A program made the position numbers and the translations under genes. From the IMG/VR virus record IMGVR_UViG_2541047897_000005: a stretch of DNA of 43,931 nt; one strand, 5' to 3'. Shown in pieces: positions 2,015 through 7,576 of this stretch. Source of the stretch: a virus. Taxonomy: Duplodnaviria; Heunggongvirae; Uroviricota; Caudoviricetes. Every line of letters begins with the position of its first letter. The stretch's first letter is position 1. Below the pieces are notes generated by a model, which saw only the letters and a list, made by a program, of their open reading frames with translations, did no database searches and had not been told where the DNA came from.

Positions 2015-2112
2015 CTTCCATTAATCCCTGAATTGTTGGTTAATACGCTTGAGGGTGAATGCGAATAATAGAAAAGGAGCCTGTAGCTCCCTGATGATTT
2101 TGCTTTTCATGT

Positions 2113-2328
2113 TCACCGTTCCTTAAAAACGCCGTTTAACATGCCGATCGCTAGGCTTAAATGAGTCGGTGTGAATCCCATCAGCGTTACCGTTTCGCGG
2201 TGCTTCTTCAGTACGCTACGGCAAATGTCATCGACGTTTTTATCCGGAAACTGCTGTCTGGCTTTTTTGATTTCACAATTAGCCTGACGGGCAATGCTGC
2301 GAAGGGCGTTATTATGTTCTATTGTCAT
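2113..2328 (-). CDS. Hypothetical protein (71 aa); start taken at internal ATG 2328, not the 117-aa track ORF
   Basis: The longer ORF would overlap the upstream 250-aa gene by about 130 nt; ATG at 2328 lies 7 nt after that gene's stop. Confidence 0.5.
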   Translation of the reverse strand: MTIEHNNALRSIARQANCEIKKARQQFPDKNVDDICRSVLKKHRETVTLMGFTPTHLSLAIGMLNGVFKER

Positions 2329-2335
2329 ATTGGCC

Positions 2336-3088
2336 TCACACTTCGAATGCCAACTGAGGGGTAAAGACGTCCCGTTCAGCGTTGTAATTAAGTGAACTGG
2401 CACTGTTGAATGATTCAATGCGTTCCACAAGAACTTGCGTACGGGTTTCTTTACTTGCGGGAGCATATGGCGAACCTACCCAGGATTTGTCGATGCCTAT
2501 ATTTCTTGCGACGTTCGTGCTGTCTGCAGACGAAAGCGGTACATGAGTAAAAATGTCTTTATTTAACATCCGTAACCCATGAATCTTGGTGATTGGGTAG
2601 CCGTACTGATCTACAACATGACGTATAAGATCGCGTAGTTTAGCCCGACACGCTCTCGGTCGTTTTGCATCGTATTCCCCCATCGAGCCGATGCAGACGC
2701 GGGGAAACTCATGGCACAGACGAATAAATCGCTCATCTGGTTCGTTCATGTGCCACACCGGAGCACCAATAAATTTACCGTGAGGCCATGCCGCAATCAG
2801 GGCGTCATTCTCTTCACTGGTTCCGCCGATAACATCCGGGATAACCGCGAATGAGAAACGAGGGTGATTACCCCAGCGTTCAACAAATCTGTAATATTCA
2901 TTCCAGTCTACGGCCTTGTTTTTTGTCCAGAATGTGAATGCACCATTATCAAGAGCAAATGATTGGGTGACTTCGGAAGCCAGATCAATCTGAGCTGGAT
3001 TAGCAAAACTGATGAATGCGTGTCTGCCTTTCCAGGCTTTCAACGCACAGGTATCGGGAGTTATTGGACCACCGTGAAAATGAATCAT
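2336..3088 (-). CDS. TGT-fold protein, candidate DpdA-like DNA-guanine transglycosylase (250 aa)
   Basis: Motifs LDNGAFTFW (compare TGT DSGGFQVF, first catalytic Asp) and ADSTNVARN (compare TGT FDCVMPTRNARN, second Asp with identical D-x5-RN spacing); no C-terminal zinc-binding Cys cluster; motif comparison from memory only. Confidence 0.45.
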   Translation of the reverse strand: MIHFHGGPITPDTCALKAWKGRHAFISFANPAQIDLASEVTQSFALDNGAFTFWTKNKAVDWNEYYRFVERWGNHPRFSFAVIPDVIGGTSEENDALIAAWPHGKFIGAPVWHMNEPDERFIRLCHEFPRVCIGSMGEYDAKRPRACRAKLRDLIRHVVDQYGYPITKIHGLRMLNKDIFTHVPLSSADSTNVARNIGIDKSWVGSPYAPASKETRTQVLVERIESFNSASSLNYNAERDVFTPQLAFEV

Positions 3089-3243
3089 ACACTCTCCCGT
3101 TTATTATTTATCTCCTCAGCCAGTCGCTGGGCTTTCAGCGGATTTCGGATAACAGAAGGCCCGGGAAATACCCAGCCTCGCTTTGTAACGGAGTAGACGA
3201 AAGTGATCGCACCTACCCGGATATTATCGTGAGGATGCTTCAT
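3085..3243 (-). CDS. Unlisted small ORF (52 aa) translationally coupled between exo and the TGT-like gene
   Basis: ATG overlaps the exo stop in ATGA, and its stop overlaps the ATG of the 250-aa gene in ATGA; below the 60-aa cutoff of the supplied track. Confidence 0.4.
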
Positions 3244-3920
3244 CGCCATTGCTCCCCAAATACAAAACCAATTTCAGCCAGTGCCTCGTCCATTTTTTCG
3301 ATGAACTCCGGCACCATCTCGTCAAAACTCGCCATGTACTTTTCATCCCGCTCAACCACGACATAATGCAGTCCTTCACGCTTCATACGCGGGTCATAGT
3401 TGGCAAAGTACCAGGCATCTTTTCGCGTCACCCACATGCTGTACTGCACCTGGGCCATGTAAGCTGACTTTATGGCCTCGAAACCACCGAGCCGGAACTT
3501 CATGAAATCCCGGGAGGTAAACGGGCATTTCAGTTCAAGGCCGTTGCCGTCACTGCATAAACCATCTGGAGAGCAGGCGGTACGCATACTTTCGTCGCGA
3601 TAGATGATCGGTGATTCAGTAACATTCACGCCGGAAGTGAACTCAAACAGGGCTCTGGCGTCGTTCTCGTACTGTTTTCCCCAGGCCAGCGCTTTAGCGT
3701 TAACTTCCGGAGCCACACCGGTGCAAACCTCAGCAAGCAGGGTGTGGAAGTAGGACATTTTCATGTCAGGCCACTTTTTTCCGGAGCGGGGTTTTGCTAT
3801 TACGTTATGAACTTCTGAAGCTGTGATGACGCCGAGCCGTAATTTGTGCCACGCATCATCCCCCTGTTCGACAGCTCTCACGTCGATCCCGGTACGCTGC
3901 AGGATAATGTCCGGTGTCAT
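3240..3920 (-). CDS. exo: Lambda exonuclease (Red-alpha), 226 aa
   Basis: Near-identical over full length to recalled lambda Exo ([37 protein letters not shown]...). Confidence 0.97.
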
Positions 3921-4702
3921 GCTGCCACCTTCTGCTCTGCGGCTTTCTGTTTCAGGAATCCAAGAGCTTTTACTGCTTCGGCCTGTGTCAGTTCTGACGA
4001 TGCGCGAATGTCGCGGCGAAATATCTGGGAACAGAGCGGCAATAAGTCGTCATCCCATGTTTTATCCAGGGCGATCAGCAGAGTGTTAATCTCCTGCATG
4101 CTTTCATCGTTAACCGGAGTGATGTCGCGTTCCGGCTGACGTTCTGCAGTGTATGCGGTATTTTCGACAATGCGCTCGGCTTCATCCTTGTCATAGATAC
4201 CAGCAAATCCGAAGGCCAGACGGGCACACTGAATCATAGCTTTATGCCGTAACATTCGTTTGGGATGCGACTGCCACGGTCCCGTGATTTCTCTGCCTTC
4301 GCGGGTTTTGAATGGTTCGCGGCGGCATTCATCCATCCACTCGGTAACGCAGATCGGATGATTACGGTCCTTGCGGTAAATCCGGCATGTACATGATTCA
4401 TTGTCCTGCTCAAAGTCCATGCCATCAAACTGCTGGTTTTCATTAATGATGCGGGACCAGCCATCAACGCCCACCACAGGAACGATGCCGTTCTGCTTAT
4501 CAGGGAAGGCGTAAATTTCTTTCGTCCACGGATTAAGGCCGTACTGGTTGGCGACGATCAGCAATGCGATGAACTGCGCATCGCTGGCATCACCTTTAAA
4601 TGCCGTCTGACGAAGAGTGGTGATCAGTTCCTGTGGGTCGACAGAATCCATGCCGACACGTTCAGCCAGCTTCCCGGCTAGCGTTGCGAGTGCTGTACTC
4701 AT
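3917..4702 (-). CDS. bet: Recombination protein Bet (Red-beta), 261 aa
   Basis: Near-identical to recalled lambda Bet; overlaps the exo start by 4 nt as in lambda. Confidence 0.97.
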
Positions 4703-4707
4703 CCGTT

Positions 4708-5004
4708 TTATACCTCTGAATCAATATCAACATGGTGGTGAGCAATGGTTTCAACCATGTACCGGATGTGTTCTGCCATGCGCTCCTGAAACTCAACATC
4801 GTCATCAAACGCACGGGTAATGGCTTTTTTGCTGGCCCCGCAGCGTTGCAAATGATCGATGCAGAGTGATTCAAACAGGTGCTGTGGAAGACCTTTTTCC
4901 ATGTCGTCTGCCAGTTCTGCCTCTTTCTCTTCACGGGCGATCTGCTGGTAGTGACGCGCCCAGCTTTGAGCCTCAAGACGATCCTGAATGTAATAAGCGT
5001 TCAT
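4708..5004 (-). CDS. gam: Gam, RecBCD inhibitor (98-aa form)
   Basis: Matches recalled lambda Gam short form ([21 protein letters not shown]...HHVDIDSEV). Confidence 0.93.
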
Positions 5005-5767: not shown

Positions 5768-6721
5768 TTATTCGAATGGAAGATCTATTTGCCTTTGAGG
5801 ATTCAACTGTTTTTTTACATGCTCAATTTCGAATATGGTTTTTATGGCATCTCCGATCATATATTGAGTTACTTTTAAATCTACAAGTAACATATCACCT
5901 TTAGAAAAATTTAAGGTGTTGTTATCAATATCGCTGATGAATTTCTGGTCTTTTATTTCAGCCAAAAAGCTACTGGCACCATCAGAAAACCGCCACCGGC
6001 TTCCTTCATTGAAGGAAATATTTTTAATTTGAAGGGCTTTCTCTACTGTGTACTCTGAAATTATTGATTCTGCTGGTAGATTGACTTTGAAATAATGTGC
6101 TTCTTGCTTGTTGATCGTCATGAATGTCAAACCATCATCGACAGTAGAGGCAAAGCTGTCAATGCCTTCCTGCTCTAATGGCTTACTTATAACTTCTTGT
6201 AATGAAGAGCGAAGTTTAATATTTTTATAAAGTTCAATAACGTTACTGTCGTAGATCTCGCTTTCGTCATCAACAAAGACTTCGATGTTGCTATCAGGCA
6301 AATTGTGTAATTTTTTTATTTTCCTTGGACCTATCCATTTTATCAGTTGAATTAGGCCTTTGCATATTTTTTCTTTAGAACCAGGACAGAGTCCAATAAA
6401 AGCAATCAAATTCGCAGCGGCTGTTGCTGAATCGCCGGATAAAAAATCAACAGCCTGTTTGAACCAAGATGTAGATGAGGCAACCAGATCTATTCCAAAT
6501 GAGCCAGCTTTAAATGATGCATTGACTTTTACAGAAACAACAGTCTTGTTTCCGTAGAGAGTTTTACCGGCTTCCTCTAATGCATCTGATAGTGATAGAA
6601 GGGCAGGAGCAAGGTCTCGCACGTTCATTTCATGCGTTTCCAGTGCCGGACCGTCGTATACTATCCTGAACTTCATATCATTGGTTTCCGAATTGTTGCC
6701 CGCATCCATTATGGCATTCAC
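5768..6721 (-). CDS. Hypothetical 317-aa protein at the rexAB-equivalent locus; candidate superinfection-exclusion/defence gene
   Basis: Long ORF between the repressor gene and OL/PL; visibly AT-rich, Lys/Ile/Asn/Ser-rich codon use unlike flanking phage genes; own terminator; no recognisable motif. Confidence 0.8.
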   Translation of the reverse strand: MNAIMDAGNNSETNDMKFRIVYDGPALETHEMNVRDLAPALLSLSDALEEAGKTLYGNKTVVSVKVNASFKAGSFGIDLVASSTSWFKQAVDFLSGDSATAAANLIAFIGLCPGSKEKICKGLIQLIKWIGPRKIKKLHNLPDSNIEVFVDDESEIYDSNVIELYKNIKLRSSLQEVISKPLEQEGIDSFASTVDDGLTFMTINKQEAHYFKVNLPAESIISEYTVEKALQIKNISFNEGSRWRFSDGASSFLAEIKDQKFISDIDNNTLNFSKGDMLLVDLKVTQYMIGDAIKTIFEIEHVKKQLNPQRQIDLPFE

Positions 6722-6782: not shown

Positions 6783-7472
6783 CTACCCATGCTTCCTATA
6801 CGTCTGCGGCATGCTCCCAATAACCTTACCGAAGATGAACACCCGGTTCATCTCGTCTTTCTCGATCGGGTCCCAAGGTGAGTAGCTCTTGTTATCAGAG
6901 ATAACCAGCAGCTTATCCTTCATCATTTGCAGACGCTTTACATGGGCTGTGTCGTCGTACAGAAACGCATAGATACCATCACCGTCGAAAGATTTAACCG
7001 TGATATCAACGAACAGCAGCTCACCTGGTTCGATCGTTCCTGACATGCTGTCACCGCGTACGTTAATGATACGGATATTTTCCGCCTTCCTGCCATCGAA
7101 CATGTGACGAGCATCGTCAAACGAATACTCAACCGAACGTAGAACTTCTACAAACTCACGGTTGATGACTCCCGGCCCGGCACTCACTTCGATATCAAGA
7201 ACGTCAATCTTAAAGTATTTGGAATGGCTGACAGTTGTTTGTATTGGTTGCACTGTACTGTCTGACATATTTCCAACGCCAGAAGATAACCATTCTGCGC
7301 GCACACCCAAAGCGTTCGCGATCTCCACGATTTTAGTTGTTTGGTTAGCTTTCCCTGTTTCGATTTTCTGAATAGCTGCTTGGCTAACCCCGACCAAATC
7401 CCCAAGCGCCTTTTGTGTAAGGCCTCGCGCTAATCTGGCTTCTTTAAGTCTTTCTGAGAGTGTTGTTTTCAT
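6783..7472 (-). CDS. cI: CI-type prophage repressor, HTH plus S24 LexA-like autopeptidase domain (229 aa from ATG 7472)
   Basis: N-terminal HTH (LTQKALGDLVGVSQAAIQKIETG), Ala-Gly cleavage site (VSAGPG), GDSM serine and VKRL lysine motifs; divergent from cro. Confidence 0.9.
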   Translation of the reverse strand: MKTTLSERLKEARLARGLTQKALGDLVGVSQAAIQKIETGKANQTTKIVEIANALGVRAEWLSSGVGNMSDSTVQPIQTTVSHSKYFKIDVLDIEVSAGPGVINREFVEVLRSVEYSFDDARHMFDGRKAENIRIINVRGDSMSGTIEPGELLFVDITVKSFDGDGIYAFLYDDTAHVKRLQMMKDKLLVISDNKSYSPWDPIEKDEMNRVFIFGKVIGSMPQTYRKHG

Positions 7473-7576
7473 AGTCCAAATGTACAACCAAGGTTTTATT
7501 TCATCAAACGAAAATGGTTGTTGACTAAAAACAACCATGGTTTTAATCTTGATTCAAATTAACCACGGAGGTTGTT
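7473..7576 (+). promoter_or_regulatory. OR region: PR for cro with overlapping operators, and probable PRM
   Basis: TTGACT (7521-7526), 17-nt spacer, TAATCT (7544-7549); 9-bp inverted repeat ATGGTTGTT/AACAACCAT (7514-7522, 7530-7538) and perfect palindrome AACCATGGTT (7533-7542); GGAGG RBS before cro. Confidence 0.6.

What the first reader, a model, noticed from the sequence alone, without database searches (positions are those of the whole stretch)
2336..3088. 250-aa protein with TGT-like catalytic motifs: candidate DpdA-type DNA 7-deazaguanine transglycosylase
The protein has LDNGAFTFW and ADSTNVARN, which resemble the two catalytic-Asp motifs of tRNA-guanine transglycosylases (DSGGFQVF and FDCVMPTRNARN in E. 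coli Tgt as I recall), with the same D-x5-RN spacing. It lacks the C-terminal zinc-binding module. Phage DpdA-family enzymes insert preQ0-derived 7-deazaguanines into phage DNA to evade restriction; an enzyme of this kind in a lambda-like xis-exo accessory region would be an anti-restriction DNA-modification function using host preQ0.
Basis: inference. Interest (0 to 1): 0.7.

Follow-up and report, generated by a model that had tools for sequence, protein, structure and literature searches.

The report
Stand-alone prophage DpdA-type DNA transglycosylase
This gene in an E. coli lambda-like prophage encodes a stripped-down relative of the enzymes some phages use to swap guanine in their DNA for a modified base; the identical protein was already listed as such in a 2019 survey, but nobody has tested what it does.

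Summary
Window 2336-3088 (minus strand) encodes a 250-aa protein carrying LDNGAFTFW (residues 46-54) and ADSTNVARN (188-196). It has no zinc motif.

It is a minimal TGT-fold enzyme of the phage DpdA family. The evidence:
- PHROG 887 matches at E 4e-99. The experimentally validated CAjan DpdA falls in the same PHROG.
- Profile-profile alignment to CAjan DpdA gives 98.7% probability (E 1.6e-16).
- D47, D85, H170 and D189 are essentially invariant across 60 diverse relatives.
- Relatives sit next to a YhhQ-family preQ0-transporter gene, or next to QueC and FolE.

The gene is embedded in the early-left operon, between exo and xis. The prophage has no preQ0 pathway genes, but queC is present in 5425 of 5426 complete E. 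coli genomes.

The finding is not new. The protein is 100% identical to Shigella phage SfI gp34 (YP_009147480). Hutinet et al. 2019 list that protein in their "DpdA only" group.

Function remains untested. The closest assayed relative, Salmonella phage 7-11 (36% identity), had only about 0.02% of its G replaced by dADG. DNA modification, and especially anti-restriction, is therefore a likely inference and has not been shown.

Interest is low to moderate.

The parts
2336..3088 (-). dpdA-like ORF, 250 aa: a stand-alone phage DpdA-family, TGT-fold transglycosylase
2927..2953 (-). Motif LDNGAFTFW (residues 46-54). It contains D47 (codon 2948-2950), the candidate general acid/base, at the C-terminal end of predicted strand 43-47.
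   Evidence: D47 is invariant in 60/60 diverse relatives. It aligns with CAjan D63 in LDSGAF. It shares the D-[SN]-G-[GA]-F motif with E. coli Tgt D89. It lands on the DSGGF Asp of the bridging TGT-like proteins in extended alignments.
2834..2836 (-). Codon of D85 (IPDVI), the candidate base-recognition Asp, located just after predicted strand 78-82
   Evidence: Conserved in 59/60 relatives. Its spacing from D47 (38 residues) resembles bDpdA D95-D130 (35) and CAjan D63-D105 (42). The alignment register to TGT was not established.
2579..2581 (-). Codon of H170 (KIHGLRML), an invariant His 19 residues before the nucleophile
   Evidence: Conserved in 60/60 relatives. It aligns with CAjan H187 (KLHAFG) and with the LH[IV]FGLG His of the short TGT-like proteins. 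It may be analogous to the Cap10 H226/D248 pair (inference).
2501..2527 (-). Motif ADSTNVARN (residues 188-196). It contains D189 (codon 2522-2524), the candidate covalent nucleophile.
   Evidence: Conserved in 59/60 relatives. The alignment chain is: D189 to CAjan D206 (E 1.6e-16), then to the VDSSS Asp of the Nostoc/Deinococcus TGT-like proteins (E 7e-6), then to E. coli Tgt D264 (E 2.9e-15).
3085..3098 (-). Translational coupling signal. The ATG of dpdA (3088-3086) overlaps the TGA of the upstream DUF1317 gene (3087-3085), and a GGGAGAG Shine-Dalgarno-like run lies at 3098-3092.
   Evidence: Read directly from the sequence.
3085..5004 (-). Upstream genes of the same early-left operon: gam (4708-5004), bet (3917-4702), exo (3240-3920) and DUF1317 (3085-3249). 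These are context that sets the timing of expression.
   Evidence: ORFs with overlapping or abutting ends. RefSeq annotation. DUF1317 Pfam E 1.5e-32. No sigma70-like promoter on the minus strand between about 6160 and the gene.
2074..2328 (-). Downstream 71-aa ORF of unknown function (2113-2328), starting 7 nt after the dpdA stop, followed by a terminator-like hairpin (2092-2074)
   Evidence: No Pfam or PADLOC hit. Outside the SfI module it is not co-conserved with dpdA.

Best explanation
The ORF encodes a stand-alone ('singleton') member of the phage DpdA family. It is a minimal (beta/alpha)8 TGT-fold base-exchange enzyme that lacks the zinc subdomain.

Proposed mechanism (inferred by homology). 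After prophage induction or infection, the gene is transcribed from pL together with gam-bet-exo. D189 attacks C1' of a deoxyguanosine in double-stranded DNA and displaces guanine. D47 acts as general acid/base, and D85 plus the H170/L172 strand hold the base. The covalent enzyme-DNA intermediate is then resolved by N9 of a host-made 7-deazaguanine (preQ0 from E. coli FolE-QueD-QueE-QueC). This leaves dPreQ0, or a derivative such as dADG, in replicated phage DNA before packaging.

The phage brings no precursor pathway, so the expected level is low (well below 1% of G), possibly at a specific sequence motif. The likely benefit is evasion of some DNA-targeting host defences.

What is shown: the ORF, the fold, family membership, conserved catalytic residues, operon position and host pathway presence. 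What is inferred: the DNA target, the preQ0 substrate, the level of modification and the anti-restriction benefit.
For: Family and fold:
- PHROG 887 matches at E 4e-99, and CAjan DpdA (genetically shown to be required for dPreQ0 in phage DNA) is in the same PHROG at E 7e-95.
- hhalign of the 60-sequence family profile against CAjan DpdA gives 98.7% probability, E 1.6e-16.
- In the viral structure library, every named hit with E <= 1e-3 is a phage 'queuine tRNA-ribosyltransferase'.

Catalytic residues:
- D47 60/60, D85 59/60, H170 60/60 and D189 59/60 across relatives of 32-90% identity.
- The nucleophile is mapped to Tgt D264 by chained alignments.

Substrate link:
- The PEAT2 homolog (36% identity) abuts a Vut_1/YhhQ-family gene, the preQ0 transporter family (Pfam 38.1 bits against a cutoff of 27.2).
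- The phage ZHS homolog sits next to QueC and GTP cyclohydrolase I.

DNA link:
- In lytic relatives the gene lies among helicase, primase and polymerase genes. In temperate relatives it lies beside the recombination genes.
- The zinc/Ins8 subdomain that TGT uses to hold the tRNA anticodon arm is missing.

Host supply:
- No que genes are annotated in the prophage, and queC is in 5425 of 5426 E. coli genomes.
- Phage 9g DpdA expressed alone in E. coli put 790 dPreQ0 per 10^6 nt into plasmid DNA using host preQ0 (PMC6884629).

Expression: the ATGA overlap with the upstream gene places it in the pL operon.

Literature: the identical SfI protein is listed in the DpdA column of Hutinet 2019 Supplementary Data 1.
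Against: - No member of this gamma-proteobacterial singleton clade has been shown to modify DNA appreciably. Salmonella phage 7-11 (36% identical DpdA) had only 50 dADG per 10^6 nt, about 0.02% of G, and no dPreQ0.
- The authors themselves left open whether the singleton DpdAs have functionally diverged.
- Another DpdA-only phage, Mycobacterium phage Orion, had no modification. There, however, the host lacks the pathway.
- Pfam TGT, NCBIfam and the PADLOC bacterial DpdA model do not detect the protein.
- Direct profile comparison with canonical TGT is not significant.
- The protein is neutral (pI 7.15) and lacks the basic Ins8 surface that bacterial DpdA is proposed to use for DNA binding.
- In E. 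coli, QueF converts preQ0 to preQ1 (pathway as described in PMC10516641), so the free preQ0 pool may be small (my inference).
- A trace, non-motif-specific modification would give little protection against restriction.
Confidence: 0.6

Rival explanations
1. The protein is a genuine, catalytically competent TGT-fold enzyme, but the singleton clade has diverged in substrate or target. It might act on an RNA (for example host or phage tRNA). It might insert a base other than preQ0 (preQ1, CDG, ADG). Or it might act mainly as a guanine- or deazaguanine-excising glycosylase rather than installing a protective DNA modification.
For: Phage 7-11 DNA is essentially unmodified (0.02% dADG), and Hutinet et al. 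flag possible functional divergence of singleton DpdAs. The singleton clade forms its own similarity cluster there. DpdA2 enzymes are promiscuous for preQ1, preQ0 and CDG. The fold family has been repurposed before, as Cap10. There is no obvious basic DNA-binding surface (pI 7.15).
Against: The tRNA-gripping Ins3/Ins8-zinc elements of TGT are absent. All catalytic and base-binding positions shared with CAjan DpdA are conserved. Genomic neighbours are DNA replication and recombination genes, or preQ0 supply genes. Every DpdA tested so far inserts a 7-deazaguanine into DNA.
Confidence: 0.27
2. The protein works like CBASS Cap10: a TGT-fold protein that binds or transfers a deazaguanine-conjugated protein. 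Alternatively, it is a phage counter-measure that intercepts such deazaguanylated defence proteins.
Confidence: 0.04
3. The motif resemblance is coincidental, and the ORF is an unrelated TIM-barrel protein or a non-functional remnant.
For: There are no Pfam, NCBIfam or PDB sequence hits. Foldseek against the PDB is weak, with best E 0.02. RefSeq calls it hypothetical in 100 E. coli genomes.
Confidence: 0.01

Closest known systems
Enterobacteria (Shigella) phage SfI gp34, YP_009147480 / AFR52480. It is listed as DpdA in group 3, 'DpdA only', of Hutinet et al. 2019 (Nat Commun 10:5442).
   Same: The amino-acid sequence is 100% identical over all 250 residues. The position is the same, downstream of exo-DUF1317 and upstream of xis/int. 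The neighbouring genes are 92-99% identical.
   Different: The prophage backbone differs: here it is integrated next to icd, carries a PDC-S42 candidate gene where SfI has rexAB, and has no gtr serotype-conversion genes. Neither copy has been tested experimentally.
Salmonella phage 7-11 DpdA (YP_004782407), the only member of this singleton clade whose phage DNA has been analysed
   Same: 36% identity (E 1e-36). It has the same LDNGAF, PDVI, KIHGL and ADS motifs and is in the same PHROG 887. The phage has no preQ0 genes.
   Different: 7-11 is a virulent 90-kb phage. It lacks the RN after the nucleophile Asp. Its DNA carries only about 0.02% dADG.
Escherichia phage CAjan DpdA (DpdA1, YP_009196829). 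It is required for replacing about 32% of G with dPreQ0.
   Same: Same PHROG. hhalign 98.7%. D63/D105/H187/D206 correspond to D47/D85/H170/D189 with near-identical spacing. It has no zinc motif either.
   Different: Identity is only about 19-21% in the aligned region. CAjan DpdA is 306 aa with a C-terminal extension. CAjan encodes its own FolE, QueD, QueE, QueC and a preQ0 transporter next to dpdA, whereas the window prophage encodes none.
Bacterial DpdA of the Dpd restriction-modification system (Salmonella Montevideo, PDB 7UI4)
   Different: The bacterial enzyme is 413-436 aa with insertions Ins1, Ins2 and a 128-residue Ins8 pinned by a CxCx2Cx22H zinc site. It needs DpdB and ATP, and sits in the dpdA-K cluster. 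None of these features is present here.
tRNA-guanine transglycosylase (E. coli Tgt; Z. mobilis TGT)
   Different: There is no detectable direct sequence similarity. The N-terminal beta-lid, the tRNA-binding insertions and the zinc site are absent. The target is presumed to be DNA rather than tRNA position 34.

Membership tests
Phage DpdA (DpdA1-type; PHROG 887) | Significant sequence or profile similarity to experimentally validated phage DpdA | tested here: met
   PHROG 887 matches at E 4e-99, and CAjan DpdA is in the same PHROG at E 7e-95. hhalign of the family profile against CAjan DpdA gives 98.7%, E 1.6e-16. The identical SfI protein is in the DpdA column of Hutinet 2019 Data S1.
Phage DpdA (DpdA1-type; PHROG 887) | Conserved His that distinguishes DpdA from DpdA2 ('position 196' in Hutinet 2019) | tested here: met
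   H170 is invariant in 60/60 relatives and aligns with CAjan H187. Its equivalence to '196' in 9g numbering is inferred and was not checked on the 9g sequence.
Phage DpdA (DpdA1-type; PHROG 887) | Exchanges guanine in DNA for preQ0 or another 7-deazaguanine | not testable with these tools
   This needs LC-MS/MS of DNA or an in vitro exchange assay. The closest assayed relative (7-11) shows only trace dADG.
Phage DpdA (DpdA1-type; PHROG 887) | Access to a 7-deazaguanine precursor (phage-encoded pathway, transporter or host pathway) | tested here: met
   No que, folE or yhhQ genes are annotated in the prophage. The host pathway marker queC is in 5425 of 5426 E. coli genomes. Relatives sit beside a YhhQ-family gene, or beside QueC and FolE.
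TGT superfamily (base-exchange transglycosylases) | (beta/alpha)8 TGT-like barrel | tested here: met
TGT superfamily (base-exchange transglycosylases) | Nucleophile Asp (E. coli D264 / Z. mobilis D280 / bDpdA D256) | tested here: met
   D189 is conserved in 59/60 relatives. It is mapped through CAjan D206, then the Nostoc/Deinococcus VDSSS Asp, then Tgt D264, with E 1.6e-16, 7e-6 (84% probability, the weakest link) and 2.9e-15. The direct family-to-bridge alignment is in the same register but only E 0.006-0.036.
TGT superfamily (base-exchange transglycosylases) | General acid/base Asp in the D-S-G-G-F motif (E. coli D89 / bDpdA D95) | tested here: met
   D47 is conserved in 60/60 relatives within DNGAF, with the same D-x3-F spacing as Tgt D89..F93 and bDpdA D95..F99. 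It aligns to CAjan D63 significantly. Its alignment to the DSGGF Asp of the bridging proteins appears only in low-confidence extended alignments.
TGT superfamily (base-exchange transglycosylases) | Base-recognition Asp (E. coli D143 / bDpdA D130) | tested here: inconclusive
   D85 is conserved in 59/60 relatives, follows a predicted strand and has plausible spacing. The alignments do not put it in register with the TGT Asp.
TGT superfamily (base-exchange transglycosylases) | Structural zinc site CxCx2C...H | tested here: not met
   There is no CxCxxC and only 4 Cys. E. coli Tgt has CDCYTC and bDpdA has C368/C370/C373/H395. CAjan DpdA also lacks it, so this feature separates canonical TGT and bDpdA from phage DpdA rather than excluding DpdA-like function.
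TGT superfamily (base-exchange transglycosylases) | Match to Pfam TGT (PF01702) or NCBIfam Tgt models | tested here: not met
   There are no hits for the window protein, CAjan DpdA, 7-11 DpdA or any of the 60 family members.
Bacterial DpdA (Dpd R-M system) | Match to the DpdA model, a DpdB partner and the dpd gene cluster | tested here: not met
   PADLOC DpdA gives no hit. There are no dpdB-K genes in the prophage. No neighbour is conserved.
CBASS type IV Cap10 | Operon with Cap9 (QueC-like) and a CD-NTase carrying the N-terminal Gly-rich tail | tested here: not met

The most novel reading that the evidence does not exclude
The temperate-phage singleton DpdAs may not be bulk anti-restriction enzymes. 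Instead they may install a sparse, motif-specific 7-deazaguanine mark using host preQ0. One possibility is that the mark imitates the dPreQ0/dADG 'self' mark of bacterial Dpd restriction-modification systems, so that the phage escapes Dpd-type restriction in enteric hosts. Another is that it marks phage DNA for some phage-internal purpose. This would explain why phage 7-11 carries only trace dADG, and why the gene travels as a single cassette without a precursor pathway.
Probability: 0.12. Interest if true: 0.6.

Novelty: already known. Interest (0 to 1): 0.25.

Why it matters
If the enzyme is active, about 2% of sequenced E. coli strains (100 of 5426 complete genomes), along with many Salmonella, Klebsiella, Shigella and Vibrio temperate phages, carry a one-gene device. 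That device would let an induced phage borrow the host's queuosine precursor to chemically alter its own DNA.

This bears on three things: phage host range, horizontal transfer across restriction barriers, and sensitivity to the newly described 7-deazaguanine-targeting glycosylase defences.

The open question is narrow but testable: do 'DpdA-only' phages really modify DNA, at what level and at which motif?

There is also a practical point. RefSeq still labels the E. coli prophage copies 'hypothetical protein', although the identical phage protein is annotated and published as a DpdA homolog.

Tried and rejected
Searches and comparisons that led nowhere:
- Pfam and NCBIfam scans of the protein gave no hit.
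- Pfam on 60 family members, CAjan DpdA and 7-11 DpdA gave no TGT hit.
- phmmer/hmmsearch of the protein, of two family profiles and of CAjan DpdA against PDB sequences gave only spurious weak hits: HipT, designed repeat proteins and GCN4 coiled coils.
- hhalign of the family profile against E. coli Tgt alone, and against an 8-sequence TGT profile built here, was not significant. The link had to be made through CAjan DpdA and two short TGT-like proteins from Nostoc and Deinococcus plasmids.
- The PADLOC bacterial DpdA model gave no hit for the window protein.
- A search for a conserved partner gene found none. No neighbour of the window gene is found beside the homologs in BTP1, Athena1, PEAT2, 7-11, K391 or ZHS.
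- A search for experimental work on lambdoid or temperate singleton DpdAs found nothing.
- The supplementary tables of the 2023 DpdA paper are not held, so I could not see how it classifies SfI.

Ideas considered and rejected:
- A Cap10-like role, because there is no Cap9 or CD-NTase.
- A tRNA-directed Tgt paralogue, because the tRNA-binding zinc subdomain is missing.
- Membership of a bacterial Dpd system, because there is no cluster.

Full report
**1. Observation**

The ORF listing and translation show a 250-aa ATG-initiated ORF at exactly 2336..3088. It lies on the minus strand, and the plus-strand frame is broken by many stops. LDNGAFTFW occupies residues 46-54 and ADSTNVARN residues 188-196.

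The MG1655 tgt product contains TDSGGFQVF (D89), MFDCVMPTRNARNG (D264) and the zinc motif CDCYTC. The window protein has four Cys and no CxCxxC.

**2. Where the window comes from**

The whole window is 99.97% identical to a lambdoid prophage integrated next to icd in E. coli strain YP3.

Gene order on the minus strand is gam, bet, exo, DUF1317, this ORF, a 71-aa ORF, TraR/DksA-like, DUF4222, xis, int.

The ORF's ATG overlaps the TGA of the DUF1317 gene (ATGA) and is preceded by GGGAGAG. The next ORF starts 7 nt after its stop. No sigma70-like promoter was found on the minus strand between about 6160 and the gene. A terminator-like hairpin follows at 2092-2074.

The gene is therefore part of the early-left (pL) operon. 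It should be silent in the lysogen and expressed with the Red recombination genes during lytic growth. This last point is an inference from lambda biology.

**3. What the protein is**

Direct family models fail:
- Pfam, NCBIfam and PADLOC give no hit.
- Sequence searches of the PDB find nothing.

Phage-specific and profile methods are unambiguous:
- PHROG 887 ('queuine tRNA-ribosyltransferase') matches at E 4e-99 over the full length.
- The same PHROG contains Escherichia phage CAjan DpdA at E 7e-95. Deleting that gene abolishes dPreQ0 in CAjan DNA (PMC6884629).
- A 60-sequence profile of relatives at 32-90% identity aligns to CAjan DpdA with 98.7% probability, E 1.6e-16.
- The family is large: 6182 proteins in the 90% clusters and 894 clusters at 50% identity.

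Structural evidence:
- An AlphaFold2 model (mean pLDDT 80.4, pTM 0.79) shows alternating strand/helix elements.
- Foldseek against the PDB was weak.
- Against viral models there were 24 hits at E <= 1e-3, and every named one is a phage 'queuine tRNA-ribosyltransferase'.

**4. Catalytic residues**

Conservation across the 60 diverse relatives:

| Residue | Conserved |
|---|---|
| D47 | 60/60 |
| D85 | 59/60 |
| H113 | 59/60 |
| H170 | 60/60 |
| D189 | 59/60 |
| S190 | 59/60 |
| R195 | 41/60 |
| N196 | 46/60 |

Motif order and spacing (47-85-170-189) match CAjan DpdA (63-105-187-206). They also resemble bacterial DpdA D95/D130/D256 (PMC10164549) and Cap10 D73/D122/H226/D248.

I built an 8-sequence TGT profile and found two short TGT-like proteins (Nostoc 315 aa, Deinococcus 276 aa) that E. 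coli Tgt detects directly. The results were:
- TGT profile against these bridges: 98.5%, E 2.9e-15. Tgt D89, D143 and D264 fall on their DSGGF, LDFP and VDSSS Asp residues.
- CAjan plus ZHS DpdA against the bridges: 84%, E 7e-6. CAjan H187 and D206 fall on LH and VDSSS.
- The window family aligns to the bridges in the same register, but only at E 0.006-0.036.
- Extended alignments put both CAjan D63 and window D47 on the DSGGF Asp.

The nucleophile equivalence (D189 = Tgt D264) therefore rests on a chain of profile alignments, two strong and one moderate. The D47 = D89 equivalence rests on motif identity, position at a strand end and low-confidence alignment. The D85 equivalence is unproven. 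I could not perform a coordinate superposition.

**5. Link to 7-deazaguanine and to DNA**

- In Pectobacterium phage PEAT2 the homolog (36% identity, E 9e-34) overlaps the end of a Vut_1/YhhQ-family gene, the preQ0 transporter family (above the Pfam cutoff).
- In Edwardsiella phage ZHS a more distant homolog lies directly after QueC and GTP cyclohydrolase I.
- In lytic relatives the gene sits among helicase, primase and polymerase genes.
- In temperate relatives it sits next to the recombination module.
- No neighbouring gene is co-conserved, so it moves as a single-gene cassette.
- The prophage encodes no precursor pathway, but queC is present in 5425 of 5426 complete E. coli genomes.
- Published work shows that a phage DpdA expressed alone in E. 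coli can use host preQ0 to put about 790 dPreQ0 per 10^6 nt into plasmid DNA.

**6. What is already known**

The protein is 100% identical to gp34 of Shigella phage SfI. The RefSeq phage record names that protein 'queuine tRNA-ribosyltransferase', accession YP_009147480.

That accession appears in the DpdA column, with all pathway columns empty, in Supplementary Data 1 of Hutinet et al. 2019. The relatives I found independently (BTP1, SPN3UB, Athena1, PEAT2, 7-11, HK106) are listed there too.

The paper places these in its third group, 76 phages that 'encode DpdA but no G+ or preQ0 biosynthesis protein homologs'. It says their modification status 'is difficult to predict'. It notes a gamma-proteobacterial singleton cluster that may have diverged. 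It reports only 50 dADG per 10^6 nt in phage 7-11. Later papers repeat this without new data on the clade.

The family assignment is therefore already in the literature. The function is still open.

**7. Mechanism and rivals**

The best-supported reading (confidence about 0.6) is a DpdA-type DNA guanine transglycosylase, expressed early in lytic growth, that uses host preQ0. Homology predicts the double-displacement chemistry: D189 as nucleophile and D47 as acid/base. The modification level is expected to be low.

The main rival (about 0.27) is a competent TGT-fold enzyme whose target or substrate has diverged. This is supported chiefly by the near-absence of modification in phage 7-11.

A Cap10-like protein-directed role is unlikely (about 0.04), because Cap9 and a CD-NTase are absent from the prophage annotation. 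Chance resemblance is excluded.

**8. Verdict**

The finding is already known as a catalogued, uncharacterised 'DpdA-only' phage gene.

It is present at >= 99% identity in 100 of 5426 complete E. coli genomes. In all twelve hits shown in that search RefSeq calls it 'hypothetical protein'. Its remaining value is as a convenient, genetically tractable test case for whether singleton DpdAs modify DNA at all.

Noticed in passing
window 5768-6721 (-): A 317-aa 'hypothetical' ORF lies immediately beside the S24-peptidase cI-like repressor (6783-7538), in the slot where lambda and SfI carry rexAB. It is a full-length match to the PADLOC candidate single-gene defence family PDC-S42 (E 3.4e-86) and has no Pfam domain. 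It is probably a prophage-encoded defence or exclusion gene of unknown mechanism.
   Followed up: partly
window 2113-2466 (-): A 117-aa ORF overlaps the last 131 nt of the dpdA-like gene in another frame, and it is annotated that way in phage SfI (SfI_0033). RefSeq instead starts it at the internal ATG at 2328 (71 aa), 7 nt after the dpdA stop. Neither version hits any family, and it is not found beside dpdA homologs outside the SfI-type module.
   Followed up: partly
L009 (Pectobacterium phage PEAT2) 5531-5998: PEAT2 gp18 is a Vut_1/YhhQ-family protein (Pfam 38.1 bits, cutoff 27.2) whose end overlaps the start of the DpdA homolog. The YhhQ column for PEAT2 is nevertheless empty in Hutinet 2019 Supplementary Data 1. 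At least one 'DpdA-only' phage therefore appears to bring a precursor transporter.
   Followed up: partly
L022 1498-2445 (Nostoc plasmid pNOS3756_2) and L023 1354-2184 (Deinococcus grandis pDEGR-2): These are short TGT-like proteins (315 and 276 aa) without a CxCxxC zinc motif. They carry DSGGF, LH[IV]FGLG and VDSSS motifs, intermediate between canonical TGT and phage DpdA. The Nostoc gene is sandwiched between two DEAD/DEAH-box helicase genes, which suggests an uncharacterised Dpd-like or defence cluster.
   Followed up: no
phage record OR850331.1 (hit H5): A 1719-bp unannotated GenBank record labelled 'Staphylococcus phage SA 1298 Kay' encodes a homolog with the same identity to the window protein (67.6%) as the Salmonella P22-like phage copies. 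This is an odd match for a Staphylococcus phage, and the record is probably mislabelled or a contaminant fragment.
   Followed up: no
whole window (RefSeq annotation of the identical YP3 prophage): The prophage sits next to icd. It carries several cargo genes among the late and nin regions: iss (serum survival), an ompC-like porin, emrE, an alpha/beta hydrolase, a ybcK-type recombinase and a YdaT toxin-domain gene next to the immunity region.
   Followed up: no
window 2336-3088, compared with E. coli RefSeq genomes: There is an annotation inconsistency. The identical protein is 'queuine tRNA-ribosyltransferase' in the RefSeq SfI phage record (YP_009147480), but WP_000581109.1 is 'hypothetical protein' in the E. 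coli chromosomes that carry it. Of 100 matching genomes, all twelve listed are annotated this way.
   Followed up: yes
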